Source: Clostridiales bacterium (GTDB lineage: Bacteria; Bacillota; Clostridia; Oscillospirales; Acutalibacteraceae). From it: a stretch of 64,000 nt of DNA. How positions within the stretch are numbered: the first letter of the stretch is position 1; each line of letters begins with the position of its first letter. This document shows positions 39,551 through 59,336 of the stretch, piece after piece. The position numbers were made by a program, and so were the translations under genes. Location: NCBI GenBank assembly GCA_019416455.1, contig DXXG01000025.1, positions 11-64,010 on the forward strand. Reading direction: 5' to 3'. The notes under the pieces are model-generated. The model saw only the letters and a list, made by a program, of their open reading frames with translations, was not told where the DNA came from and searched no databases.

Positions 39551-41419
39551 TCACGCGGTTTTCCTGCGTTTGGGAGCAAAGACCGGATCCAACACAGATG
39601 TAATCAATGCTTCCCGGTCCTCCTCATTAGAGGTGGCTTTGCTGATAATAGTCTCCAACGCAGAAGTGTAGGGGTCTCTAGAGATCTCCGCGCTGGTTAC
39701 CCAGTCGATAAGGCTTCGCATTCCCACAGTTCCATCGGTAATGCTGTTTTTCCGGCAGTACGTGGCCAAGTCATTTACCACTTCCACCATCTGGCATACC
39801 CGATACTCGTCTGTAGCTCCGGTAACTGCCATGACTCGCTGGGCCATGACTTCTGGGCTGGGAAGCTCTATGTCTTTGACTAGGCTCATCCGGTCCACCA
39901 CACTCTGGTTCATAGCCCTGCATCCTTCATAGCTGACATTGGTGGTAACCACCACAACCGCATCTGGGTGGCGGCGGATCACCTCACCTGTGGGCAAAGT
40001 GATAGTTCCCCCTTGCTCCAGCAAAGAGTTGAGGCCCACCAGCACACCGGGTTGCAGGATGGTAGATGGCTCTTGAAGCTCCACCAAGTAACCATTCTTC
40101 AGTGCCTTGATGAAATCCGTTTCCACATAGGTGTACGTCTGGCCAGAAGAACCCTCCTGCACGGTGATGAGCTGCCTTACCTTATCGGTAACTTTCTCCA
40201 ACACCAGCCCCATACAATCTTGGGAGGTGGCGTTGGGATTTTCTGCCCCGGTGAGGGCAAGGTACACCCCTGCTGGATCGTAGTCCATGTCATCCAAGTC
40301 AGGAAGTTTCAGCAGTTTGCTCACATTGGCATAGTTAATGCCTCCCATGGCTCGCAGCTGCTCCCGCTCTTGATCCAGATTTGTGTCCCCAGTGGAAAAG
40401 TCCTCCGTATTGGGAAACACTGTGCCAACAAAATCATATATTTCTGATCCTGCTGAACAGGTGTACTTCATGTAAGGAAGTCCCAGACCTGCCGCAATGG
40501 CCTTGGCACCCATGGTCTTGCCGGTTCCGGCAGGACCACGGAGAAGAAAATTGCGCATCTGAGTGGGTTTCCCTGTGGTAAGCTTGGCGTGCTTACAGAT
40601 GTCCACCGCCTCGGGGGGAATGATATACCACTCTGGGAGGACGGGCACCTGGGCCTGCTCTCCAGCGGAAAGCTTACGGGTGGGATCCAGTACATATTTC
40701 CCCACAAAATCCTTGTGGGAAACCGTCTTTACAGGGCTGTGTACAGCCGCCTTCCCACTTTGGGTGAAGATGGAGAATTCTCCGGCTAACACCTCTGTGG
40801 GCTGGAATATTCCTGAGTCCAGCTGAGCGCGGGAAACCCGCATCAAGTTGCCGGACCGGTCCACGTTTACCTTCAGGTGTGTGGGGCAGGTATCGTCCTT
40901 TACCCTTCGGTAGGTATTGTCACAGAGGACTCCCATAGCATTCGTTGCTTTGAGAAGATCTGGATACCCATTTTTGTACTGTTTCTGGTAGGTCAGATAG
41001 TTTTCTTTGAATTCCTCGTCCTTCAACAGCAGGGGCATCATGGCGAAAAACAGGGCAGCTCCATCCCTTCCGGTAGCATGGGCTGTGTACTGCTCCATAA
41101 GCTCAGTGTTTTTGTCATAGACACTGGCTTGCAAGTTCCCGGTAACAGAATCGTATACCACCAAGTGATAGGCGTCCGGCCCCATGGAGGACTTGTACTC
41201 TGCCACACAGGTGGTGGGAATTACCGTTCCTACAGCCCCCTCTCCACCGTTCTGGCAGGCGCACAGGGCATGAACTGCCTTGATGATAGGAGCGCACAGG
41301 GTCGCTTCTGTCCCACCATACTTAGAGGCAGTGCCTTTTATCTTTTTAGTTGCCAGCACGTCGAATGGCGGTGGAAGAGGCCTGCCAAAGTTGAACAGGT
41401 TTGTCAGTGATGTTGCCAT
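39551..41419 (-). CDS. AAA+ ATPase (MoxR/CobS/AAA_5-like) with a long N-terminal extension
   Basis: LLRGPAGTGKTMGAKAIA about 300 aa into the protein, and ...AVVVVTTN... Confidence 0.85.
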   Translation of the reverse strand: MATSLTNLFNFGRPLPPPFDVLATKKIKGTASKYGGTEATLCAPIIKAVHALCACQNGGEGAVGTVIPTTCVAEYKSSMGPDAYHLVVYDSVTGNLQASVYDKNTELMEQYTAHATGRDGAALFFAMMPLLLKDEEFKENYLTYQKQYKNGYPDLLKATNAMGVLCDNTYRRVKDDTCPTHLKVNVDRSGNLMRVSRAQLDSGIFQPTEVLAGEFSIFTQSGKAAVHSPVKTVSHKDFVGKYVLDPTRKLSAGEQAQVPVLPEWYIIPPEAVDICKHAKLTTGKPTQMRNFLLRGPAGTGKTMGAKAIAAGLGLPYMKYTCSAGSEIYDFVGTVFPNTEDFSTGDTNLDQEREQLRAMGGINYANVSKLLKLPDLDDMDYDPAGVYLALTGAENPNATSQDCMGLVLEKVTDKVRQLITVQEGSSGQTYTYVETDFIKALKNGYLVELQEPSTILQPGVLVGLNSLLEQGGTITLPTGEVIRRHPDAVVVVTTNVSYEGCRAMNQSVVDRMSLVKDIELPSPEVMAQRVMAVTGATDEYRVCQMVEVVNDLATYCRKNSITDGTVGMRSLIDWVTSAEISRDPYTSALETIISKATSNEEDREALITSVLDPVFAPKRRKTA

Positions 41420-41425
41420 ACTAAG

Positions 41426-42226
41426 TCAATCCTTTCTGCGGTTCTCCCGCGTGATCTCGATATAAATTCCTTCCTCCTGAAAATGGCAGGATAATCCGTT
41501 ATCCACCAGCTCCTGGCATAGAGCAGGCCAGGCTGCAGGTTCCGGCAAGTCTCCGCCGGTAAGAAGAAGGTATTCCTGATTTTGAGCAATACACTCGTTA
41601 TATAGTTCGTTTAGCTCTCCAAGGTGGGACTCCACCCACTCAAAGGCTGTTAGGCTGAAGTCTTCCGGCTCTGGAGAAGAGGGAGTCGATTCAGTCGGCT
41701 CTGGCTGAGGAGGATCGGGTGGTGTGTTCTTTGATGGAGGCTCCAGTGAAGGCTTCTCCTCAGGCGCACACAAGTACAGGATCTCGAAAAGGTGTTTTCC
41801 CTGGAGGCGGATCTCCGCCTCTCGATAGCCTCCTGCCCGGTTGAGCAAGATGGCCAGATCCTCACCTCGTTGAAACCTAGCTTTGGCATTGGGATACTTC
41901 CACACCCACCGGGCATTGGGATATTCACGCTGCACCCACTGAGTAATATTGGTTTGCAGTTCCCCAAAAGACAAAATGTCCTCCACATCCCGAATGGGAC
42001 GCTGGGTTGTAGAAGACGAAGAGCCTTGCGGTACCTGTTTCTCCGGTTGGGTACTTTGCACCTTGGGGGAACCGAGAAACAGCAGCCGAATCATTGCCAC
42101 AAAGATACCTAAAATCGCCAAAAGTAAAATGGGCCACAGTCTGCACACATACAAGAGCAGAGCCAGAACCCCGAAAATAACCATAGCTTCATAGGCCATG
42201 TGACGCTGCCAGTCTTTTTTCGTCAT
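41426..42226 (-). CDS. membrane protein (two N-terminal hydrophobic helices, Pro-rich centre)
   Basis: AMVIFGVLALLLYVCRLWPILLLAILGIFVAMIRLLFL. Confidence 0.7.
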   Translation of the reverse strand: MTKKDWQRHMAYEAMVIFGVLALLLYVCRLWPILLLAILGIFVAMIRLLFLGSPKVQSTQPEKQVPQGSSSSTTQRPIRDVEDILSFGELQTNITQWVQREYPNARWVWKYPNAKARFQRGEDLAILLNRAGGYREAEIRLQGKHLFEILYLCAPEEKPSLEPPSKNTPPDPPQPEPTESTPSSPEPEDFSLTAFEWVESHLGELNELYNECIAQNQEYLLLTGGDLPEPAAWPALCQELVDNGLSCHFQEEGIYIEITRENRRKD

Positions 42227-44712: not shown

Positions 44713-45879
44713 ATGAATAAAAAAGAAGTGTCCGAACTGCGCCGCCGGTGGCAGGTGGAAAAGAACTCCGTAAAACACATTTACGGCTGCTATGTCAACA
44801 CGAGTGGGGAAATCGTCGCTGACCTGGACGAGCCTTTGGCTCTCATGCCCCAAGAAGAGGCAGAGCAGTATTTCAGCCTGCTCAAGAAAACCCTCTCCGG
44901 AAAATTGGAAAAGAATCTGATCGATTTAGTGTTCTCCACCCAGCAGGTGGCTGAAAGTGACGAACACCGGCTGCTGATGTCCCTGCGGGACTCGAAACTT
45001 CAGGATCTGGAAGTGCGCCAATCTTTCTATCAAAAAGCTGTAGAGAGCTTGCATCTGGAAGGCAGCTACTTGTTGCTTCTGGCCCACGACACTTACGATG
45101 TGCCTTCAAAAGCCAAGGATGACTCCTCCCTGGAGGATGGGGAAACTGTGTTTTCTTACCTTCTCTGTGCGGTGTGCCCTGTGAAGGAGGGCAAGCCCGG
45201 ATTGGGCTATTATGCCGGGGATAACGAGTTCCACTGTTTTGCGCCTCAGACCGTGGCTGCTCCCGAATACGGGTTTTTGTTCCCCGCTTTTGACGGGAGG
45301 GTTGCCAATTTGTACAACGCCCTGTTCTACTGCCGCATATCTGACGCTTTGCCCCAGGAGTTCATTGAGAATGTATTTCACACCGATGTGCCTATGCCTG
45401 CGGCCCAGCAGAAGGAAACATTCCAGGAGTCCTTGGCGGAGGCTTTGGGACAGGCCTGCAGCATGGACGTGGTTCAGGTGGTCTACAGCCAGCTTGACGG
45501 GATGCTAGAGGAGCACAAGGAGACTGGCAGCTGGGAGCCGCTCACTGTCACCGCAAGGGATTTGGCGAACATTCTTCGGGGCTGTGAGGTCCCGGAGGAA
45601 AGTGTTCAGACTTTCCAATCTCTGTGTGACGAGAAGTTTGGAGAGGGTGTGGCTCTGAACCCTGCCAACCTTATCGAGCCAGGGAAAGTGGAAATCAGGA
45701 CGCCCCAGGTGTCTGTAACGCTGGAGTCAAACTTCTCTTCCATGGTCCAGACACGGGTGATTGATGGCCGAAAGTACCTGCTTATTCCCGCGGGAGAAGG
45801 GGTTGAATTCAACGGGTTGACAGTGAATATACCCATGGAAATGGAAGCCTTGACCTCTAAAGAAGGGGAACCAGACTGA
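44713..45879 (+). CDS. DUF4317-family protein
   Basis: MNKKEVSELRRRWQVEKNSVKHIYGCYVNTSGEIV... is an N-terminus typical of the family (recalled from memory). Confidence 0.8.
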   Translation: MNKKEVSELRRRWQVEKNSVKHIYGCYVNTSGEIVADLDEPLALMPQEEAEQYFSLLKKTLSGKLEKNLIDLVFSTQQVAESDEHRLLMSLRDSKLQDLEVRQSFYQKAVESLHLEGSYLLLLAHDTYDVPSKAKDDSSLEDGETVFSYLLCAVCPVKEGKPGLGYYAGDNEFHCFAPQTVAAPEYGFLFPAFDGRVANLYNALFYCRISDALPQEFIENVFHTDVPMPAAQQKETFQESLAEALGQACSMDVVQVVYSQLDGMLEEHKETGSWEPLTVTARDLANILRGCEVPEESVQTFQSLCDEKFGEGVALNPANLIEPGKVEIRTPQVSVTLESNFSSMVQTRVIDGRKYLLIPAGEGVEFNGLTVNIPMEMEALTSKEGEPD

Positions 45880-47004: not shown

Positions 47005-48174
47005 TCAGCCGATCACCCGGTATTTCTTTCGGTTTCCATAGGTAGTAGAGTGCAGCAGCCCCAGTTCTTCAAACTTCAGTACAAAGCCGCGGATGGTAGC
47101 ATAGGCTGCGTTGCCAAAATCCTTTTCCAGCTGCTTAGTAGAGAACTCCTCTGTGCCGTAAGCAGAGAGCACAAACTGCCACAGTTCTTTTTCCTTTTCT
47201 GTAATTTTTCCCCCTGCCAGAACCTGCTGGAAGGTATCCGTTGTTTTCCCTTCGGGTAGGGCGTGTTCCAGTTTGCCGTAAACCTGCCGTACAAAGTACA
47301 TCAAAAAAGGAGTGAGATCCAGCATTCCACTGAATCGGGCATTTTGCTCTACCAAGGTAAAGGCATCATAATACTGCTTTTTACTGTGCTGGATGTACTC
47401 CGAAAGTGGAATGAACAAGGTGGAAGGATAACCTCTCTGAGTCAGGAACCAAAGGTGTAGCAAACGAGCCATGCGCCCATTCCCGTCAAAATAAGGATGC
47501 AGATAAGCAAGGTAAAAATGAATGATAGCTGCCTGGAGAAGGTCGTTTCCCGGGTCATCTCCTTGGATGAAATTCATAAGTTCTGCCATGTAGCTGGGTA
47601 GCTTCTGCCAAGGTAGACCTGTGTGCTCCACTTTGTTACCCACCACGTACACACTGTCATGGCGGTAGAGGTTACTGGGCAGAAGCTGATCCTCTTGGGG
47701 AAGGAACTGCCCTACCACCATCTGGTAGAGATAGAAGAGGTTCTCCTCCGTGATGGCATGAGTGGTGTCAGCGATAAATTCAAGTCCCAGCTTCATACCC
47801 TGCACACGGTATTCTATCTCACTATCCGGGGCGTAACCCGCCATGATCCTCCGTACACTTTCCCTGGACGTGTCAATCTGTTCAATGGAAAAGGTGGCCA
47901 AAATTTCCTCCTCCATAGCTTTCCTGCCGTAGATTTGCATACGGTCCTGCGGAGTAAGAAGCACTTTGGCTGCGGAAAGCTGAACCTGAGTGACACCGGG
48001 AAGATAAACTACCTGGTTTCCTTGAAAATCTCGAAGCGGAAGGTCTTTTGTAAAACCATCCCGCAGCAGGTCGGCAAATTCACGAATCGATGCCTGCGGG
48101 TATTTATAACCAAGTTTTTTCAAATCGATGATAGTTGGGTCTGCCAGCATTCTGGCAAAGAGTTTTGCGTCCAT
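47005..48174 (-). CDS. Fic family protein
   Basis: HPYFDGNGRMARLL Fic motif. ATG at 48174 behind AGAGGTG. Confidence 0.9.
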   Translation of the reverse strand: MDAKLFARMLADPTIIDLKKLGYKYPQASIREFADLLRDGFTKDLPLRDFQGNQVVYLPGVTQVQLSAAKVLLTPQDRMQIYGRKAMEEEILATFSIEQIDTSRESVRRIMAGYAPDSEIEYRVQGMKLGLEFIADTTHAITEENLFYLYQMVVGQFLPQEDQLLPSNLYRHDSVYVVGNKVEHTGLPWQKLPSYMAELMNFIQGDDPGNDLLQAAIIHFYLAYLHPYFDGNGRMARLLHLWFLTQRGYPSTLFIPLSEYIQHSKKQYYDAFTLVEQNARFSGMLDLTPFLMYFVRQVYGKLEHALPEGKTTDTFQQVLAGGKITEKEKELWQFVLSAYGTEEFSTKQLEKDFGNAAYATIRGFVLKFEELGLLHSTTYGNRKKYRVIG

Positions 48175-48607
48175 AGGATCACCTCTGAAAGAAAACGATA
48201 TCAATTAGTATCAGTATATCAGAGGCGCCTTATTCTGGCAAGACATGATTTATTTAAGGTATGAGTCGGTAACAAGGGGGAGATTGTCACCCCGCCATAT
48301 TTGGAAATATTATGGGTGGATAAGGATAAATACGATAGAAGTTTTGCACTGCGCGAAGACGCCAGCAAGAACCTCTTCCTGAACTGCACTCCCATCATCT
48401 CGTTAATGGTCAAGGATTTTGCTGGGCCGATAGAGTATCTGATCACTGTAACCGACATACCATTTGATTGTATGACATCAAATAGTTACAGTAATTATTT
48501 CATCTCTGAGGAACGTATAGGTTTTGTGTTCTAAACTACTGACATGTATTGTAATTAAGCCTTGTTTCCGCTATACTGAGGATAGTTTCAGAAAGGGGAG
48601 GGGTGTT

Positions 48608-52755: not shown

Positions 52756-53442
52756 CTATGTGTCCAAATCCATAGTTCTTACACTTTCAGCTATCTTCAC
52801 CAGCGTTTCTTTGGGAAGTGGCGCCGTGATGCAGAAAATGATGTCTTGATTCGTGGACTGCCAGACCAGTCCGTTGGCATTCTCAGGATCTTCCGCCTGA
52901 TAATAGTCGCCTTGGACATCCCCAACCATGGTGGGAGTCACGGATTCATAGTCCGAGGTGATAAAGAGACCAACAGATTCGGACCCGTGGATTGCCATAA
53001 ATGAAATCATGTCGTCCTCTCCGTCTGTATAGACCAAGAAGGTGTCATTGTCGGAATGGTTCTCCGCGTGGAGGGTAAATCCCTCTGGCAGCCAGGACGG
53101 CTCATAGCTTTCCGCAGTAGCTTCTGAGCTGGATTCTCCCGCAAATCGATAGGACACATACGATTCATAGGTTTGCTTTACCCAGGAAAAGAACATAGCT
53201 CTGGCCTGGGTATCCACCGAAAGCCAGGTGGTCCCTCCTAGGATCACCACAGCCAAAATGCAGGCGGCTGTCTGTAAGAACTTGTAAGCTACAGGATGGG
53301 ATTTCCTTCGGATCAGGCGCTTCATTTTACGCTCAAACCCAAGAGAGAAAGAATGTCTACAATCCTCCGAAAGAGGAAGTGCCTCCAGGATCGTCTGGTC
53401 AGCTTCTGCCGCGGCGGCTTTGAGCATTTCATCGGTGATCAC
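52756..53442 (-). CDS. anti-sigma factor (DUF4367-like)
   Basis: Overlaps the sigma gene stop. Single TM helix, then an extracytoplasmic domain. Confidence 0.7.
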   Translation of the reverse strand: MITDEMLKAAAAEADQTILEALPLSEDCRHSFSLGFERKMKRLIRRKSHPVAYKFLQTAACILAVVILGGTTWLSVDTQARAMFFSWVKQTYESYVSYRFAGESSSEATAESYEPSWLPEGFTLHAENHSDNDTFLVYTDGEDDMISFMAIHGSESVGLFITSDYESVTPTMVGDVQGDYYQAEDPENANGLVWQSTNQDIIFCITAPLPKETLVKIAESVRTMDLDT

Positions 53443-53957
53443 AAGTTTCCCTCCTTCTCGTACAAATCCTTTAGTTTGTTCTTTGCCCGCTGGTCCAATT
53501 TAGATGCAGCCGCAAGGGAGATTCCCAATATCGAGGCTACTTCTTTCACGCTGTACCCTTGGTGATATCGTAGCAAGATCACCTCTCGATATCTGGCAGG
53601 CAGCTTCAAGATGCAGGCAGTCAAGGCGTTTTGCCCTTCGTAAACAGGGGAGAAGCCCCGAATCTCTTCAGTAAGCTCCACAATTTGGCGCCGCTTGCGC
53701 TTTCTGTAGAGATCGATCGCTTTGTTCTCAACTACAGTAACGACGAAGCCTTTGGTTTTTGGACACTTTGGCTCCCCAATTTTTTGGATGTTTTCCGCCA
53801 CTTTCACAAAAGCCTCATGGACGGCATCCTCTGCGTCTTGGTCATTGTCAAGGATTCGGTTGGCCACGTAGAACATGAGCTCGCGGTATTCGATGTAAAT
53901 TTGTTCAAACTTTGACCGATCCTCTGAAGAATCAATCATTTGAAGATACAGTATCAT
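53439..53957 (-). CDS. ECF-type sigma-70 family factor
   Basis: FEQIYIEYRELMFYVANRILDNDQDAEDAVHEAF and ...REVILLRYHQGYSVKEVASILGIS. Confidence 0.9.
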   Translation of the reverse strand: MILYLQMIDSSEDRSKFEQIYIEYRELMFYVANRILDNDQDAEDAVHEAFVKVAENIQKIGEPKCPKTKGFVVTVVENKAIDLYRKRKRRQIVELTEEIRGFSPVYEGQNALTACILKLPARYREVILLRYHQGYSVKEVASILGISLAAASKLDQRAKNKLKDLYEKEGNL

Positions 53958-54310
53958 GGTGGTTTCCTCCAGGTAGGATAGGCTGATTATAGCATGCTCC
54001 ATTTGCTTTTCACAAGTTAAGAAACGTCCGATACCACAGCCATCCCCTGAAGAACAAGGGTAAGTGTATCTTTATATTCCTCAGCTTGTTGCAACGGTCC
54101 GGAAGATCCTGAAAAGAAGGTTTTCTTATTTTGAACTAGTTAAATCTCAGTTTATTTGGTTCAAAAACCATTTTTTATTGCGTAATAGACTTGTTCAAAT
54201 TTCAAAAGGAAGCTGGAATGTCTATAGCCTTTTTCACACCAACAGAAACGGGTTGTCAAGGACGTTTAATTCATTTTTACAAGGATTCGCAGATAAGCAG
54301 ATAATAGAAG

Positions 54311-54418: not shown

Positions 54419-55525
54419 TCACTCACGATTTATGGATAAAAGGTATGAGTACGGATTTTCTCGCAAAATATGTTTTTTATCTATACTATAAGAGACTGCA
54501 GATGCTATAACGGATACCCCCATACCAGCAAAAATTGCTTGTTCTACAGGCATTCCTAATAGTGCCATCGGTACCCCTGTCGCACTTGCAGATAGCAACG
54601 ATACCTTGAGGAAGGTTTCAGTAAACCATTTAATCCGTGAACTCGCAAGAGCAGCCTTGAAATCGTTAAATGCAGGCATAAACTCATGGCTATATAAATC
54701 ACTTATCTCTTGTTGCAAAACTTCAATAGGTCTATCTCCATCAAGATTCTGTGTAAGCTTAGTAAGTTGTGTTCTGAATCTCCCTAATTCATCTCGATGA
54801 TGGTTTTTGAAAGAAACTATATCAGCAAGAGTAGTATCTGGGGAAATAGAAAGCCCGCGTATAATAAAATTAAGCAATAGACCTTGTTCCAATTGATGAT
54901 CTTTTGGACGTCTATTAAAAAAAAGGTATTTAGGTCGTATTGGTGTTTGATTTCCCAACCTAACAGTATTACTTATATTAAAACATGGGACATCGTTTGT
55001 AACCATTCCCAAAGAGTGATCTTCGCACAATTTATTAGCCAGTACTATCATATAGATATTAGTGAAATCGCTGTCAAAATAATAAATATCATGGTGGTCT
55101 ATATGACGGCTGAAATATCGTATCTGTTCCCGTATTCTCTGCGACATTATTTCTCTGTATATTCCACCACGCGAAACATCGCTGAGATATCTTCTTATTT
55201 TATAAGATATTTTATCACTCCAAATTCTGTCATACCTCTGTTCCTGTGGTGAACAAATGACTTTCCTGAATTCACGTGAAAACAATAAATCAAGTATTTC
55301 GTCTTCAATGCCAACGACAGATTTGTCGTCAGAGTTTATATAAAGAGGTCGTAAAAAGCCAATATCAGCTAGGTATTGTGTATCTGGCTGATTATACGGA
55401 TGAGTAAGAGACTCTGGAACGATGGTTGATATAGAGTCCCAGAAAAGAATTGATGTTTTTAGCCAGTCTGTGTCCTCTATGTCAATAGTGGGATAATACA
55501 AAGCATTTGAAAATGCAGGTCGCAT
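54419..55525 (-). CDS. hypothetical protein (368 aa), DUF6236-like N-terminus and C-terminal hydrophobic helices
   Basis: ALYYPTIDIEDTDWLKTSILFWDSISTIVPES... and C-terminal ...VSLLSASATGVPMALLGMPVEQAIFAGMGVSVIASAVSY. Confidence 0.8.
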   Translation of the reverse strand: MRPAFSNALYYPTIDIEDTDWLKTSILFWDSISTIVPESLTHPYNQPDTQYLADIGFLRPLYINSDDKSVVGIEDEILDLLFSREFRKVICSPQEQRYDRIWSDKISYKIRRYLSDVSRGGIYREIMSQRIREQIRYFSRHIDHHDIYYFDSDFTNIYMIVLANKLCEDHSLGMVTNDVPCFNISNTVRLGNQTPIRPKYLFFNRRPKDHQLEQGLLLNFIIRGLSISPDTTLADIVSFKNHHRDELGRFRTQLTKLTQNLDGDRPIEVLQQEISDLYSHEFMPAFNDFKAALASSRIKWFTETFLKVSLLSASATGVPMALLGMPVEQAIFAGMGVSVIASAVSYSIDKKHILRENPYSYLLSINRE

Positions 55526-55988: not shown

Positions 55989-56609
55989 TCATCCATCTCG
56001 TTTCTCATTTGCTTTTGTGAGATGTACTAATCTGTAGTAAGTGCCTTTCTTGACTCCGAGTTTTTTCATGGCAGCCACAGCCGTTATCTCACCAGATTTC
56101 CAACGCTCGTAGACTGTGTCCCAATTTGCAGGAAATTCGATTTTCGGCCTGCCCAGATGTTTTCCCATTGCTTTTGCCGCAGCGATGCCCTCGGCCTGGC
56201 GCTGGCGAATGGTCAATCGCTCCTGCTCTGCGATGCTGGAGAGTACCTCAATCAAAATATTATTGATCATTTCGAAGACCCATTCCTGACCCGTGGGCAG
56301 TTGGATCATGGTAGTTGGCAGGTCGATGACCCGCACTTGAATATGGTGTTCTTTAAAGTAGCGAAGCTCTTGGGTGATGTGTTCTTTGTTCCGGCTGAGT
56401 CTGTCCAAAGATTTGATGACCAGCGTATCACCGTCCCGCAGCATGGAGTTCTTCAGTACCTGATATCCGGAGCGATCCAGATCTGCACCGCTGGCCTTAT
56501 CGGTCACGATGTCCCTTTCATCCACTCCGCAGTCCAATAAAGCTTTGATCTGTCGGTCCAGGTTCTGCTCTTTCGTGGAGACTCTTGCGTATCCAAATGT
56601 TTTGTTCAC
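55989..56609 (-). CDS. small serine recombinase (resolvase/invertase family)
   Basis: (V)NKTFGYARVSTKEQNLDRQ... and a C-terminal HTH. GTG at 56609 behind AGGGGGAAAG. Confidence 0.9.
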   Translation of the reverse strand: MNKTFGYARVSTKEQNLDRQIKALLDCGVDERDIVTDKASGADLDRSGYQVLKNSMLRDGDTLVIKSLDRLSRNKEHITQELRYFKEHHIQVRVIDLPTTMIQLPTGQEWVFEMINNILIEVLSSIAEQERLTIRQRQAEGIAAAKAMGKHLGRPKIEFPANWDTVYERWKSGEITAVAAMKKLGVKKGTYYRLVHLTKANEKRDG

Positions 56610-57127
56610 TGATGACTTTCCCCCTTCAAAATCTGTCCAGAAAGGTTTCCGTATTTTCAGCCATGTCAAAAAATGAAAAACCGAGGTTTTCGGACATGAT
56701 TGGCATGGCTTTCCTACGAGAAAATGATAGAATAAAAAGGTGTACCTTTTTGAACAACAATATTACACGGAATGCGCTGCTGTTTTGCAACCAGAAAAAC
56801 AAAAAGAAACGGCAGGGATCTTCCTGCCGCCTTTTTTAGTCTGCCTATGCCATGACTTGCGCAAAATCTGCCTGTAGTATTAGTCGACATCAACTGACAT
56901 TAGGAACCCTTGAATGGATAAACCAAAGATTCTGAGTAAGATATGGATTGCAGAAATTTCCGTTTAAGTGTAAAATATAATTAAAGATTTTGTTTTTGAT
57001 CTGAGGGAGAAAGGTCATAAGCGCCGAATTCTACATATTTAGACACAATGTCATGCATTAGAATATATGCAACAAATGAATATTTTTTTATTATTATAAA
57101 TAATAAATAGCCAAAAGGGGGATGAGT

Positions 57128-57940
57128 ATGGCTACAGTAGTACGAACTGACTTTCATTTTAATTTTTTAAAAAACGTTATCATAAGAATTGATTTTCAGG
57201 GTGTTTTTGAACCTGAGATGGAAAGATTGTTAACACTTATCAAACCAGTTGTTAAAGAAAAAGGATTTTCTAGATATTTAAAAAGGCAAAACAATCAAAT
57301 AAAAGTTAATGTAGGAAATTTGAATTCACAAGATTCTTCATTGAGTAAAGTTGTCCAAAGTCAAGAGATTCATTCTTTCGTTAATGAAGATCGGGGGTAT
57401 GTGCTTGATCTTGCGAGTAGTTTTGTATGCCTAAATATCAACTCAACATCGTACACGCCTTTTGAAGATTATAGCAGTCTTGTTTCAGAAATAGCAGAAA
57501 TATATAGAAACAATATTGATTTTGCATCCATTAATAGAGTTGGCATAAGAAAAATTAATGTTTGTATGTTTGAAGATAGAGAAAAGATTAAAGAGTTTTT
57601 CTCTCCTGAATTTTTTGGATATTTTAAATCTATACCAGGCGCAAATACATTTATCAGTAGACGACAAGATACATTTGGAATCGATCTATATAAAGTTAAC
57701 CTCTCATGTAATATTGAGCAAGGAACTGCTGAGGACAAAACCCTTTACAGAGTCTTACTGGACAGTGACATATATGTTGACAATGCAGAAACAATCAAAA
57801 ATGGTGTAAACTATCCGCAAATGAATAGTTTTCTGTTCGACATATACGTTTCTTCACTTACGGAAAAATTTATAGTAGCACTTTGTGGTGACGATGAAAG
57901 CAAATTTGAAGAAATAATAGGTGTTGAAAAAAATGAGTAG
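57128..57940 (+). CDS. hypothetical protein (270 aa), possibly TIGR04255-like
   Basis: First gene of the overlapping operon. The FLKNVIIRIDFQG N-terminus is reminiscent of TIGR04255 (low certainty). Confidence 0.8.
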   Translation: MATVVRTDFHFNFLKNVIIRIDFQGVFEPEMERLLTLIKPVVKEKGFSRYLKRQNNQIKVNVGNLNSQDSSLSKVVQSQEIHSFVNEDRGYVLDLASSFVCLNINSTSYTPFEDYSSLVSEIAEIYRNNIDFASINRVGIRKINVCMFEDREKIKEFFSPEFFGYFKSIPGANTFISRRQDTFGIDLYKVNLSCNIEQGTAEDKTLYRVLLDSDIYVDNAETIKNGVNYPQMNSFLFDIYVSSLTEKFIVALCGDDESKFEEIIGVEKNE

Positions 57941-58451
57941 AGATACTTTTGAAGCTTTTCGCTTAAGAGACTTACAAGTAAGCACTACCGAATTGAGTGA
58001 AACACATCATTTTGGTGATATTTTTGATTTGGCAAATTGCTTTTTGTCCATTGAAGCAATGACGCACAAAAAACTGCAAAAGTTGTGTTATTATGCAAAA
58101 GCTTGGTATTTAGCTATTAATGATGAAAACTTGATTAGTGAACCTTTTGAAGCATGGGTTCATGGAGCAGTTCAACCTTTGCTGTATCAAAAGTATCGCT
58201 CCTATGGATTTCAACTTATACCTATGTTCCAAGGAAACTTACTTCAACTCCCTGAAGAGTTTTTAGATTTTTCTAAGGAAATTTTTGAATCGTACGGAGA
58301 ATTTAGTGGGGACGAATTAGAAAAAATCAATCATCAAGAAATGCCATGGATTAAAGCTCGGGGAGATTTAAAGCCATGGCAAAGTGGAAATACGGTTATA
58401 AGTGATGAAGATATGAAATATTATTATCGGAGTTTAATGCAGAATGAGTAA
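57933..58451 (+). CDS. Panacea / DUF4065 (SocA-like antitoxin) domain protein
   Basis: MTHKKLQKLCYYAKAWYLAINDENLISEPFEAWVHGAVQPLLYQKY. ATG overlaps the upstream stop (AATGAGTAG). Confidence 0.8.
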   Translation: MSRDTFEAFRLRDLQVSTTELSETHHFGDIFDLANCFLSIEAMTHKKLQKLCYYAKAWYLAINDENLISEPFEAWVHGAVQPLLYQKYRSYGFQLIPMFQGNLLQLPEEFLDFSKEIFESYGEFSGDELEKINHQEMPWIKARGDLKPWQSGNTVISDEDMKYYYRSLMQNE

Positions 58452-59004
58452 AGTACGTATTCCAAAGCCTCGATTAGATTGTGAGCCTAAAAGTATTCCT
58501 AAACCGTCTTTTTTACCTTCTGAAAAAGAGGCTCTAGTGGTATTTTCTTTTGCATCATTAGAATGGACTGAATATTTTAACTTGGATAGCACTTGTCCCA
58601 GTTGGTCACTTGACTTATTGAATATGTTAAAAAATGTCTCTGGCGTATCAAAGGCGCACCTTTTAAGTGGAAAGTATAGAACATATCGTGTGCACACTCA
58701 TGAAAAAGCAAAACCACCAGATCCGCTTCCTGCTGGCGTATCTCTTAAGGATTGTTATCAGATACGTATCTCTACAGCAAAAGGTGGAATTCATGGTGTT
58801 TTTGTAGAAAATACATTTTATGTTATATGGTTAGACCCGCTCCATAATATGTACCCAGATGATCGCTTTGGTGGCTTGCGAAAAATAACTCCTCCGAATA
58901 CTTGTTGCAGAGATAGAGAAGAACGATTTTTTCAGTTGCAAGAAGAAAATGCAAGATTGAAAGAAGAAAATAAGTATTGGGAGGATGAATTAGGTAAGAT
59001 ATAA
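58444..59004 (+). CDS. hypothetical protein (186 aa), candidate toxin/effector partner
   Basis: ATG overlaps the upstream stop (AATGAGTAA). Core CYQIRISTAKGGIHGVFVENTFYVIWLDPLHNMYP, with a C-terminal coiled-coil-like tail. Confidence 0.8.
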   Translation: MSKVRIPKPRLDCEPKSIPKPSFLPSEKEALVVFSFASLEWTEYFNLDSTCPSWSLDLLNMLKNVSGVSKAHLLSGKYRTYRVHTHEKAKPPDPLPAGVSLKDCYQIRISTAKGGIHGVFVENTFYVIWLDPLHNMYPDDRFGGLRKITPPNTCCRDREERFFQLQEENARLKEENKYWEDELGKI

Positions 59005-59336
59005 GAAACTTCGTCTCAGAACCCACAACAGTGTCTCAAATGTCGGTTATATATTTGGTACTGGTTGGAAAGGTGACAGTTATTATAACAAGCCTTAAGA
59101 GAGAATAAAACTTTTTGCGTGATACAGCAGTAAGTTCCTCTTGCATTCCCACTGAGAACATGGTATATTTATTTTGTAAAGTTTCCTCGTTGCCAAGAGC
59201 AATGACAGTTTCTTTGTAACACAGCGTCAGAGAGTCTTGTCTTTCTGGCGCTTTTTTATGTCTTCTGCCTCTGTCCAAGAGGCACAGAAATAGGAAGAAG
59301 GGCGCAAGGTTTCTGCCCCTTCCATTTGGCTTAGCC

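What the first reader, a model, noticed from the sequence alone, without database searches (positions are those of the whole stretch)
57128..59004. Three overlapping genes around a Panacea (DUF4065/SocA-like) antitoxin domain: candidate tripartite toxin-antitoxin or defence module
Seen in the sequence:
- Three same-strand ORFs of 270, 172 and 186 aa sit in a markedly AT-rich islet.
- Both gene junctions share the same 8-nt motif, AATGAGTA (AATGAGTAG, then AATGAGTAA), with the downstream ATG overlapping the upstream stop. This is the classic arrangement for translational coupling.

Established knowledge:
- The middle protein carries the Panacea-domain signature (KLQKLCYYAKAWYL...WVHGAV).
- This domain is known as a promiscuous antitoxin that pairs with many unrelated toxins.

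Inference:
- The 186-aa downstream protein matches no family I recognise.
- Its core (YQIRISTAKGGIHGVFVENTFYVIWLDPLHNMY) has the alternating pattern of RelE/ParE-type sheets and could be a new PanA-neutralised toxin.
- The upstream 270-aa protein (TIGR04255-like at best) would make this a three-component system rather than the usual pair.
Basis: partly seen in the sequence, partly recalled or inferred. Interest (0 to 1): 0.72.

Follow-up and report, generated by a model that had tools for sequence, protein, structure and literature searches.

The report
PanA–PanT toxin–antitoxin pair plus TIGR04255 gene
This is a small mobile three-gene cassette: a Panacea-type antitoxin and its probable RNase-like toxin, a pairing already catalogued, preceded by a tightly linked gene of unknown function that has not been described as part of such systems.

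Summary
Three overlapping, same-strand genes lie in an AT-rich 2.16-kb block (window 56941-59097).

- **Gene 2** is a Panacea/PanA antitoxin (PF13274, 55 bits).
- **Gene 3** has no Pfam family but is not new. Its core profile matches a listed member of PanT cluster T1 of Kurata et al. 2022 (53.7 bits). Every relative with upstream DNA follows a Panacea gene, in at least eight phyla, seven viral contigs and one plasmid. Its AlphaFold model best resembles YoeB/HigB/RelE RNases, but weakly.
- **Gene 1** is a true TIGR04255 protein (95.9 bits, cut-off 30).

The trio is inherited as a unit:
- PanAs linked to gene 1 are monophyletic.
- dN/dS is 0.09-0.21 for all three genes.
- The ribosome-binding site and start codon of gene 2 lie inside the last codons of gene 1.

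A sister clade has an unrelated DUF6941 gene in place of gene 1. Distant TIGR04255 genes head cassettes with a small protein and an MBL-fold hydrolase.

Verdict: a known kind of toxin-antitoxin pair with a conserved, swappable third component of unknown role. No toxicity or defence function is shown. I rate it a new variant of a known kind, of moderate interest.

The parts
56941..59097 (.). Cassette block: the only DNA shared (90% identity) with an independent copy in a different genomic context
   Evidence: blastn of window against L071/L074. The match covers 56941-59097 only and the flanks are unrelated. GC is 0.31-0.37.
57117..57121 (+). GGGGG Shine-Dalgarno for g1, 6 nt before the ATG at 57128
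   Evidence: Read from the sequence. Homologues start at the Met that corresponds to 57128.
57128..57940 (+). g1: a 270-aa TIGR04255-family protein. It is a single domain with a duplicated beta-alpha-beta4-alpha module (TBP-like topology). Function unknown.
   Evidence: NCBIfam TIGR04255 at 95.9 bits, cut-off 30, full length. No Pfam, PADLOC or PHROG hit. AF2 pLDDT 87.8, pTM 0.83. Best structural matches are weak (TM 0.40 or less).
57919..57940 (+). g1/g2 junction: the SD-like AGGTG and the ATG of g2 lie inside the last g1 codons (G-V-E-K-N-E-stop), with an 8-nt overlap
   Evidence: Sequence. The pattern GGAGTTGA(A/G)AAAAATGANTRR is conserved in 15 of 17 distinct trio junctions, and also in the MBL-type TIGR04255 cassette L051.
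57933..58451 (+). g2: a 172-aa PanA antitoxin candidate with a Panacea domain only and no DNA-binding N-terminal domain
   Evidence: PF13274 at 55.1 bits, cut-off 25.7, residues 48-139. phrog_1281 at 122 bits. SocA equivalog at 48 bits against a cut-off of 190, so it is not a SocA orthologue.
58074..58349 (+). Panacea domain of g2 (residues 48-139)
   Evidence: Pfam envelope.
58430..58451 (+). g2/g3 junction: GGAG 10 nt before the ATG, with an 8-nt overlap (ATGAGTAA)
   Evidence: Sequence. Homologous junctions overlap by 8 or 11 nt or abut.
58444..59004 (+). g3: a 186-aa PanT candidate of the cluster-T1 superfamily
   Evidence: At least 223 homologues, all unannotated. The Emek phage T1 PanT matches the g3 core profile at 53.7 bits. 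A Panacea gene always lies upstream.
58531..58863 (+). g3 core domain (about residues 30-140). Predicted order is beta-alpha-alpha-beta4. Residues invariant among the 42 aligned Clostridia-type homologues are R82, H84, H86, Q106, R108, K113, G114, G115, H117, D131, P132, H134, N135 and Y137.
   Evidence: Alignment A1. AF2 secondary structure. Foldseek top hits are YoeB 2a6r, HigB 4mcx, RelE and YafQ.
58909..58998 (+). g3 C-terminal helix (residues 156-185, heptad-like LQEEN..LKEEN), preceded by the invariant C154-C155. Absent from most distant relatives.
   Evidence: AF2 helix 156-185 at pLDDT above 90. Alignments A1 and A3.

Best explanation
A 2.16-kb horizontally mobile cassette encodes a Panacea-type toxin-antitoxin pair and one extra, tightly coupled gene.

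Shown:
- g2 is a Panacea-only PanA.
- g3 belongs to the large, widespread PanT cluster-T1 superfamily, which is found only directly downstream of Panacea genes.
- g1 (TIGR04255) has been co-inherited with this pair through one whole lineage. g1 is translated first, and the ribosome-binding site and start codon of g2 are embedded in its last codons.

Inferred:
- g3 is a YoeB/RelE-fold endoribonuclease that blocks translation when it is free.
- g2 neutralises g3 by direct binding, as validated PanAs do.
- The C-terminal coiled coil of g3 mediates oligomerisation.

More speculative: g1 is the input or regulatory partner of the PanA-PanT complex, that is a sensor or modulator that decides when the toxin is released, rather than a second toxin or a bystander. 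Three observations point this way:
- The first position is filled by a non-homologous gene (DUF6941) in the sister clade.
- Other TIGR04255 genes head cassettes with a different putative effector (an MBL-fold hydrolase) behind the same junction.
- All these cassettes sit in mobile elements or variable islands.

The likely biological role is stabilisation of a mobile element and/or abortive-infection-type defence.
For: **g2 identity:** PF13274 above threshold.

**g3 and cluster T1:**
- The T1 member of Salmonella phage Emek (YP_006560566.1) scores 53.7 bits over profile positions 17-134 of the g3 core. Its PanA scores 136 bits against the g2 profile.
- Dataset S1 of PMC8832971 lists Emek, cyanobacterial, Chloroflexi and Roseateles members in T1. 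This is the same taxonomic spread as my loci.
- The C. cadaveris T1 member is labelled 'mRNase' and was toxic in E. coli.

**Pair linkage:** all g3 relatives with upstream DNA have a Panacea gene directly upstream, on the same strand. This covers 42 genome loci, 7 viral contigs and 1 Vibrio plasmid.

**g3 fold:** pLDDT 84; the top 5 and 13 of the top 14 PDB hits belong to the RelE/ParE superfamily.

**Trio linkage:**
- 13 species-level genomes plus metagenome contigs carry g1-g2-g3.
- g1-linked PanAs form one clade.
- The shared DNA block equals the three genes plus short flanks.
- dN/dS is 0.09-0.21.
- The junction is conserved.

**Modularity:**
- DUF6941 (44 bits, cut-off 27) replaces g1 in 7 loci.
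- hhalign finds no homology between DUF6941 and g1.
- TIGR04255 members P0141-P0143 and L060 (46-62 bits) precede a 56-75-aa protein and a 315-332-aa MBL-fold protein with an HPHDDH motif. This MBL protein has weak hits to the defence-associated MBL models LmuA, DRT-MBL, 6A-MBL and Avs1a.

**Context:**
- The window has a serine resolvase next door and a SoFic gene 9 kb away.
- Other copies lie beside transposases, Tn916-type integrases, restriction-modification genes, Schlafen-like ATPases and Tn7-like TnsAB.
Against: - **No experiment.** Toxicity, neutralisation and any phage phenotype are untested.
- **Mixed record for T1.** Of the three T1 pairs tested by Kurata et al., one toxin was toxic but was not neutralised by its PanA, and two (E. 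coli and Emek) were not toxic.
- **Weak RelE-fold assignment for g3.** Foldseek E-values are 0.045-0.6 and TM 0.38-0.46 on the target. There is no Pfam RelE/ParE/YoeB/HigB hit at E of 1 or less. hhalign against YoeB gives a probability below 1%.
- **g1 is uninformative.** It has no informative structural neighbour (TM 0.40 or less), no domain fusions among the 150 best of 699 representative clusters, no PADLOC hit and no literature. Its proposed sensor or regulator role therefore rests only on gene-neighbourhood logic.
- **Limited sampling.** The MBL-type cassettes come from only four distinct loci.
- **Search bias.** Loci were recovered with motif patterns taken from g3 or g1, which favours relatives that keep those motifs.
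Confidence: 0.6

Rival explanations
1. g1 is the transcriptional (auto)regulator of the operon, as PaaR is in PaaR-PaaA-ParE. It would supply the DNA-binding function that the Panacea-only antitoxin lacks.
For: - g2 has no N-terminal DNA-binding domain ('noNTD' is the usual state for T1 partners in Dataset S1).
- g1 is the first gene of the operon.
- Its duplicated beta-alpha-beta4-alpha topology and weak Foldseek hits include TATA-binding proteins and RepD.
- Arg and Lys residues are conserved across the family.
Against: - No HTH, RHH or other DNA-binding family hit.
- TM-scores to TBP are only 0.2-0.3.
- Most T1 pairs work without any such gene.
- The DUF6941 replacement has no DNA-binding signature either.
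- No operator-like repeat stands out upstream of g1.
Confidence: 0.15
2. g1 is itself a second toxin or effector that is also held in check by PanA (a toxin-antitoxin-toxin arrangement).
For: - Kurata et al. find toxins on either side of PanA (T|A and A|T orders).
- g1 has a constellation of invariant charged residues (R, R, D, R, R, K, D, N) that could form an active site.
- Foldseek lists triphosphate-tunnel enzymes among its weak hits.
Against: - No TIGR04255-named protein appears as a predicted PanT in the stored part of Dataset S1.
- g1 was never seen with PanA alone, without g3.
- In the other cassettes g1 relatives precede a basic 56-66-aa protein that shows no antitoxin features.
- TM-scores to triphosphate-tunnel enzymes are about 0.15.
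Confidence: 0.12
3. The pair is not a growth-arresting toxin-antitoxin system at all. g3 is a non-toxic nucleic-acid-binding or regulatory protein that merely partners with Panacea proteins, and the trio has some other housekeeping role for the mobile element.
For: - Two of the three T1 members tested were not toxic in E. coli.
- There is no significant sequence link to any characterised toxin family.
Against: - One T1 member was toxic.
- The non-toxic Emek protein lacks the His that corresponds to H134, reading DREFNLY against DPLHNMY in g3.
- The strict Panacea adjacency, the small overlapping genes, the patchy distribution and the mobile-element contexts are all typical of toxin-antitoxin pairs.
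Confidence: 0.13
4. g1 is a hitch-hiking neighbour with no functional tie to the PanA-PanT pair.
For: - Kurata et al. report that accessory third genes occur in only a small fraction of loci and probably play no general role.
- Most g3 relatives lack g1.
Against: - The g2 start codon and Shine-Dalgarno sequence lie inside g1 codons in 15 of 17 junctions.
- g1-linked PanAs are monophyletic down to about 45-50% g3 identity.
- The transferred DNA block contains exactly the three genes.
- g1 is under purifying selection (dN/dS 0.15).
Confidence: 0.05

Closest known systems
PanAT systems, PanT cluster T1 (Kurata et al. 2022, PNAS, PMC8832971)
   Same: - A Panacea-only antitoxin lies upstream of a small unannotated toxin candidate, in A|T order, with overlapping or abutting genes.
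- g3 is homologous to a listed T1 member, Emek YP_006560566.1.
- The phylum spread is the same.
- One T1 member is labelled mRNase and was toxic.
   Different: - This Clostridia lineage adds a C-terminal Cys-Cys plus coiled-coil extension to the toxin.
- It also has a strictly co-inherited upstream TIGR04255 gene.
- Kurata et al. treat third genes as sporadic accessories. I could not check whether their accessory list includes TIGR04255, because that sheet is not in the stored file.
RelE/ParE-superfamily ribosome-dependent mRNases (YoeB, HigB, RelE, YafQ)
   Same: - The predicted beta-alpha-alpha-beta4 topology matches.
- These are the best structural matches.
- Conserved Arg, His and Tyr residues sit near the C-terminal end of the core, as in YoeB (H83-Y84).
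   Different: - There is no significant sequence or profile similarity.
- The domain is about 110 residues with long insertions, against about 85-95.
- It has an extra coiled coil.
- Its partner is Panacea rather than Phd/YefM, RelB or HigA.
Three-gene type II systems: PaaR-PaaA-ParE and toxin-antitoxin-chaperone (TAC) modules
   Same: A toxin-antitoxin pair with a conserved third gene in one operon.
   Different: - g1 has no HTH, unlike PaaR, and no SecB-like domain, unlike TAC chaperones.
- The third gene comes first, whereas the TAC chaperone comes last.
- The first-gene slot is filled by non-homologous genes in sister clades.
SocAB (type VI, Caulobacter)
   Same: The antitoxin carries the Panacea/SocA domain.
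   Different: - The SocA equivalog model scores 48 bits against a cut-off of 190.
- There is no SocB-like partner.
- Validated PanAs act by direct binding, not as ClpXP adaptors (PMC8832971).
TIGR04255 family (NCBIfam, function unknown)
   Same: g1 is a full-length member (95.9 bits).
   Different: I found no functional or contextual description of the family. The links to Panacea/T1 pairs and to small-protein plus MBL-fold pairs are observations made here.

Membership tests
Panacea / PanA antitoxin (PF13274) | Panacea domain detected above Pfam's gathering score | tested here: met
   55.1 bits against 25.7, profile positions 1-112 of 113
Panacea / PanA antitoxin (PF13274) | Conserved two-gene (or three-gene) locus with a partner gene no more than 100 nt away in two or more species, with non-conserved flanks (the Kurata criteria) | tested here: met
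   g2-g3 adjacency in all 50 or more loci, with unrelated flanks
Panacea / PanA antitoxin (PF13274) | Neutralises the cognate toxin by forming a complex with it | not testable with these tools
   Needs co-expression and pull-down.
PanT cluster T1 (Kurata 2022) | Detectable homology to a listed T1 protein | tested here: met
   Emek YP_006560566.1 against the g3 core profile: 53.7 bits, E 3e-18, nearly full length. Only one T1 member could be retrieved.
PanT cluster T1 (Kurata 2022) | Growth inhibition on expression | not testable with these tools
   In the literature one of three tested T1 members was toxic.
RelE/ParE superfamily | Sequence-profile match to a RelE/ParE/YoeB/HigB/YafQ family | tested here: not met
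   No such Pfam or NCBIfam hit at E of 1 or less. No PDB sequence hit. hhalign against YoeB gives a probability below 1%.
RelE/ParE superfamily | Microbial-RNase-type fold (beta1-alpha1-alpha2-beta2-5) | tested here: inconclusive
   The order of AF2 secondary-structure elements fits. The top 5 and 13 of the top 14 Foldseek PDB hits are superfamily members, but with E 0.045-0.6 and TM 0.38-0.46.
TIGR04255 family | Full-length match above NCBIfam's cut-off | tested here: met
   95.9 bits against 30, profile positions 5-248 of 252. Homologues score 46-104 bits.
TAC (toxin-antitoxin-chaperone) | SecB-like chaperone as the third gene | tested here: not met
   No SecB family hit for g1. The fold differs.
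PaaR-PaaA-ParE-type three-gene system | Third gene is an HTH transcriptional regulator | tested here: not met
   No HTH or other DNA-binding family hit in g1.
SocAB type VI system | SocA orthologue plus SocB toxin | tested here: not met
   SocA equivalog at 48.1 bits against a cut-off of 190. g3 is unrelated to SocB by any search.
Catalogued anti-phage defence systems (PADLOC v2) | Any of the three proteins matches a PADLOC model | tested here: not met
   No hits at E of 1 or less for g1, g2 or g3.

The most novel reading that the evidence does not exclude
TIGR04255 proteins are the common 'front end' of a previously unrecognised family of modular three-gene immunity or addiction cassettes. 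One TIGR04255 sensor or regulator would be translationally coupled to interchangeable inhibitor-effector pairs: Panacea plus a RelE-fold RNase here, and a small basic protein plus an MBL-fold nuclease elsewhere. DUF6941 would be an analogous alternative front end. If so, the trio would be a true three-component system in which the PanA-PanT pair is the output stage. This might also explain why a T1 PanA alone failed to neutralise its toxin in E. coli.
Probability: 0.25. Interest if true: 0.7.

Novelty: new variant of a known kind. Interest (0 to 1): 0.45.

Why it matters
- **An uncharacterised toxin cluster.** PanAT systems are the reference example of a 'hyperpromiscuous' antitoxin domain, yet T1, one of the two largest predicted toxin clusters, is still uncharacterised and gave mixed results when tested. 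This locus suggests that at least one T1 lineage needs to be studied as a three-gene unit.
- **A first context for two unknown families.** It gives a concrete genomic context to TIGR04255 and DUF6941, neither of which has a known function.
- **A possible recurring design.** If the first gene is a sensor or regulator, the cassette would show a toxin-antitoxin pair being recruited as the output stage of a larger system. That theme recurs in anti-phage defence.
- **If not,** the finding is an ordinary PanAT pair with an accessory gene.

Tried and rejected
- **Sequence searches of the PDB.** Profiles of g1 and g3 and the g2 sequence gave nothing.
- **hhalign of g3 profiles against E. coli YoeB.** I first verified the YoeB sequence as identical to 2a6q_E. 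The result was not significant, although the short local alignment pairs 'CYQIRIS' with 'FWSRRIT'.
- **Third homologue search, using the divergent g3 core alignment.** Close Clostridia relatives swamped it and it gave no named distant hits.
- **Cluster look-up to link an Anaerostipes homologue to the T1 accession WP_009290790.1.** It returned different accessions, so no link was made.
- **A phage accession recalled from memory.** JQ806764 turned out to be phage Oslo, not Emek. Emek was then found through a Panacea tblastn.
- **Wider neighbourhood survey of TIGR04255.** The yield was small:
  - The metagenome scan gave only 3 loci, all trios.
  - Viral-contig scans with three alignments gave one locus, and a fourth alignment was too diverse to scan.
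  - tblastn of g1 and two distant representatives against plasmids, and of g1 against phages, gave nothing.
- **Search for domain fusions of g1.** There are none among the best 150 representatives.
- **Homology between DUF6941 and TIGR04255** (testing the idea that DUF6941 equals half of the duplicated g1 fold). Rejected.
- **Terminal repeats at the cassette borders.** None found.
- **Rfam scan of the cassette.** Nothing near any gathering score.
- **Promoter scan.** No sigma-70 consensus site on the + strand upstream of g1.
Full report
**1. What is in the sequence**

Three + strand ORFs are present at the stated place:
- g1 at 57128-57940, 270 aa. An in-frame ATG at 57122 would add two residues. 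Homologues begin at the second Met, and the GGGGG at 57117-57121 is correctly spaced only for the ATG at 57128.
- g2 at 57933-58451, 172 aa.
- g3 at 58444-59004, 186 aa.

Both junctions are 8-nt overlaps: ATGAGTAG and ATGAGTAA. GC content falls to 0.31-0.37 across 56750-59250, against 0.45-0.55 on either side. Rfam finds nothing near a gathering score in the region, and there is no tRNA nearby. A bidirectional terminator-like hairpin at 56807-56832 separates the cassette from a divergently oriented serine resolvase gene.

**2. The three proteins**

*g2.* It matches Pfam SocA_Panacea (PF13274) at 55.1 bits (cut-off 25.7) over residues 48-139, and has no other domain. It is not a SocA orthologue: the NCBIfam equivalog scores 48 bits against a cut-off of 190.

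*g1.* It is a full-length TIGR04255-family protein (95.9 bits, cut-off 30). It has no Pfam, PADLOC or PHROG match.
- Its AlphaFold2 model is confident (pLDDT 87.8, pTM 0.83). It shows a duplicated beta-alpha-beta4-alpha module.
- Foldseek finds only weak resemblances, with TM 0.28 or less in the PDB and 0.40 or less in BFVD. The hits include RepD, TATA-binding proteins, YwmB, triphosphate-tunnel enzymes and Bet v1-like proteins.
- A profile search of 1.84 billion representatives finds 699 clusters at E of 1e-3 or less. The best 150 are all about 260-300 aa when complete (shorter entries cover only part of the profile) and show no domain fusions.
- A set of charged residues is conserved across the family: R6, R20, D22, R137, R141, K142, D212 and N233 in 270-aa numbering.
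- No paper in the searchable library mentions TIGR04255 or its InterPro aliases.

*g3.* It has no Pfam family. It gets only sub-threshold hits to NCBIfam MAG6450_fam (20 bits, cut-off 40) and to a PHROG.
- It has at least 223 homologues of about 185 aa, all unannotated and mostly from Clostridia.
- Many polar residues are invariant in a 42-sequence alignment: R82, H84, H86, Q106, R108, K113, G114, G115, H117, D131, P132, H134, N135, Y137, C154 and C155.
- The AlphaFold2 model (pLDDT 84.3) has a beta-alpha-alpha-beta4 core followed by a long C-terminal helix at residues 156-185.
- The top 5 and 13 of the top 14 Foldseek PDB hits are RelE/ParE-superfamily toxins (YoeB 2a6r, S. pneumoniae YoeB 8yxv, HigB 4mcx, RelE, YafQ); rank 6 is the unrelated insecticidal toxin Txp40. 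RNase Sa follows. The scores are weak, with E 0.045-0.6 and target-normalised TM 0.38-0.46.
- Sequence-level tests fail: PDB profile searches give nothing, and hhalign against a verified YoeB sequence gives a probability below 1%.
- The RelE-like fold is therefore a reasonable but unproven reading.

**3. The conserved core is the Panacea-g3 pair, and it is already catalogued**

A scan of one genome per species returned 42 loci encoding g3 relatives. In every locus with enough upstream DNA, a Panacea gene lies directly upstream on the same strand.
- This includes distant, shorter (about 135-160 aa) relatives in Cyanobacteria, Chloroflexi, Acidobacteria, Planctomycetes, Bacilli, Campylobacterota and others.
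- The same holds for seven IMG/VR contigs and for a Vibrio alginolyticus plasmid, where RefSeq annotates the upstream gene as SocA-domain antitoxin.

Kurata et al. 2022 (PMC8832971) predicted 1,268 PanA-PanT pairs.
- Their cluster T1 has about 217 rows, all 'hypothetical protein', in A|T order with small overlaps. It spans the same phyla.
- I retrieved one listed T1 pair, from Salmonella phage Emek. Its PanT matches my g3 core profile at 53.7 bits (E 3e-18) over nearly the full core, and its PanA matches the g2 profile at 136 bits. g3 therefore belongs to the T1 superfamily.
- In their Table S1, the C. cadaveris T1 toxin is classed as 'mRNase'. It was toxic in E. coli but was not neutralised by its PanA. 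The E. coli and Emek T1 proteins were not toxic.
- The Emek protein lacks the His that corresponds to H134.

**4. The third gene**

g1 is present only in one lineage, but there it is fixed.
- *Occurrence.* The trio occurs in 13 of the species-level genomes (Lachnospiraceae, Acetatifactor, Lachnobacterium, Ruminococcus, Oribacterium, Eubacterium, Erysipelotrichaceae, a Gastranaerophilales bin and others). It also occurs in Hungatella hathewayi and in several metagenome contigs. The flanks are unrelated from one copy to the next.
- *Phylogeny.* In a neighbour-joining tree of the PanA proteins, the g1-linked ones form a single clade. The g3 tree agrees except for one sequence.
- *Unit of transfer.* Against a 90%-identical copy in another context (L071), the shared DNA is window 56941-59097 and nothing else. 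dN/dS is 0.15, 0.09 and 0.21 for g1, g2 and g3.
- *Junction.* The g1/g2 junction is conserved as GGAGTTGA(A/G)AAAAATGANTRR in 15 of 17 distinct cassettes. The Shine-Dalgarno sequence and start codon of g2 are thus written into the codons for the conserved g1 C-terminus (G-V-E-K-N-E).
- *Significance of the shared 8-mer.* Translational coupling is a conserved feature here. The exact 8-mer shared by the two junctions in this window is not.

Two further observations suggest that the first gene is a swappable module.
- *DUF6941 in the sister clade.* The sister clade of PanA/g3 (seven loci, including Blautia glucerasea) carries a roughly 134-aa DUF6941 protein (PF22091, 44 bits, cut-off 27) in the same position. 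It also ends in ...K-G-K-N-E. hhalign finds no relationship between DUF6941 and TIGR04255.
- *MBL-type cassettes.* More distant TIGR04255 members (31-37% identity to g1; 46-62 bits against the family model) are also first genes of overlapping three-gene cassettes.
  - They are followed by a basic 56-75-aa protein and a 315-332-aa MBL-fold protein. The MBL protein has an HPHDDH motif and weak hits to ComEC and to the defence-associated MBL models LmuA, DRT-MBL, PDC-M48B, 6A-MBL and Avs1a.
  - The junction there is again ...GGGGTCGAAAAGAATGAGTAA.
  - These cassettes lie next to Tn7-like tnsA/tnsB genes, or next to a TIGR02391 gene on a viral contig.
  - This second architecture rests on four distinct loci only.

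**5. Context**

The window looks like a Clostridia chromosome or integrative element with accessory cargo.
- It carries an ECF sigma factor plus a DUF4367 gene, DUF4317, a SoFic-type Fic gene (PADLOC 129 bits), an AAA_5 ATPase pair, and a serine resolvase next to the cassette.
- Other copies of the trio lie beside a DDE transposase, a Tn916-type integrase/Xis/Rep, DpnII-type restriction genes, a Schlafen-like ATPase, or NikA/AAA_25 mobilisation genes.
- No copy of g1 or g3 was found in deposited phage genomes. Apart from one distant, split g3 relative on a Vibrio plasmid, none was found in PLSDB plasmids.

**6. Interpretation**

*Shown:*
- A discrete, mobile, purifying-selected three-gene cassette.
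- g2 is a Panacea protein.
- g3 is a member of the T1 PanT superfamily.
- g1 is a TIGR04255 protein, co-inherited with the pair and translationally coupled to it.

*Inferred from published PanAT work and from the fold:* g3 is a translation-targeting RNase that g2 neutralises by binding.

*Speculative:* g1 acts as sensor or regulator of the pair.

*Rivals:* the rivals are a PaaR-like regulator, a second toxin, a non-toxic function and a bystander gene. The evidence weighs most heavily against the bystander. None of the others is excluded.

**7. Novelty and score**

The pair is a known kind and very probably already listed in a published catalogue. Two things appear to be undescribed in the literature I could search:
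- the stable TIGR04255-PanA-PanT trio, with DUF6941 as its alternative first gene;
- the presence of TIGR04255 at the head of a second type of effector cassette.

I rate the finding a new variant of a known kind, with interest 0.45. The most novel reading that remains open is that TIGR04255 is the shared front end of a family of modular immunity cassettes. I give that about 0.25 probability.

Noticed in passing
window 47005-48204 (-): A 399-aa Fic-domain protein that matches the PADLOC SoFic defence model at 129 bits. It lies about 9 kb from the cassette.
   Followed up: partly
window 39551-41419 (-) and 41426-42226 (-): A 622-aa AAA_5 ATPase followed by a 266-aa protein with no family hit. 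The arrangement is reminiscent of a McrBC-like or IetA-like pair, but only weak PADLOC IetA hits support this.
   Followed up: partly
window 54419-55525 (-) and 55989-56669 (-): An AT-rich 368-aa ORF with a sub-threshold DUF6236 hit, next to a 226-aa serine resolvase. A bidirectional terminator-like hairpin lies at 56807-56832. These genes are not part of the DNA block shared with other copies of the cassette.
   Followed up: partly
window 58741-58758 and 59085-59102: An 18-nt inverted repeat (17 of 18 bases complementary), with one arm inside g3 and the other at the right edge of the shared block. It is unlikely by chance in 2.6 kb, but it is not conserved in the 90%-identical copy L071.
   Followed up: partly
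L018, L021-L025, L029 (about 1 kb upstream of the g3 match): In the sister clade, a roughly 134-aa DUF6941 protein occupies the position of g1 directly upstream of the Panacea gene. DUF6941 has no literature.
   Followed up: yes
L051:4001-5992, L054:76-2081, L055, L060:1071-3055: Three-gene cassettes made of a TIGR04255 protein, a basic 56-75-aa protein and a 315-332-aa MBL-fold hydrolase (HPHDDH motif). They lie beside Tn7-like tnsA/tnsB or a TIGR02391 gene and could be an uncharacterised defence-type module.
   Followed up: partly
L026:3822-4262 and L027:5953-6393: In a Gastranaerophilales bin and a deer-gut bin, the trio carries a g3 of only about 147 aa that ends before the Cys-Cys and coiled-coil tail. 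The tail is therefore dispensable, or this copy is decaying.
   Followed up: no
L050 (Vibrio alginolyticus plasmid pL29, 235-1434): A SocA-domain antitoxin gene is followed by a g3-like gene that appears split into two ORFs. A retron Eco8 family effector endonuclease gene lies 1.5 kb downstream.
   Followed up: no
window 52756-54002 (-) and 44713-45879 (+): An ECF-type sigma factor with an overlapping DUF4367 gene, and a DUF4317 gene (419 bits). I recall such genes as typical cargo of Clostridia integrative elements; I did not check that here.
   Followed up: no
L069 (Paenibacillus phage C7Cdelta) and L070 (Streptococcus phage Javan59): The closest phage-borne relatives of g2 (42-45% identity) lie next to lysis genes and have no g3-like gene downstream. 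Panacea proteins close to g2 therefore also occur without this toxin.
   Followed up: partly
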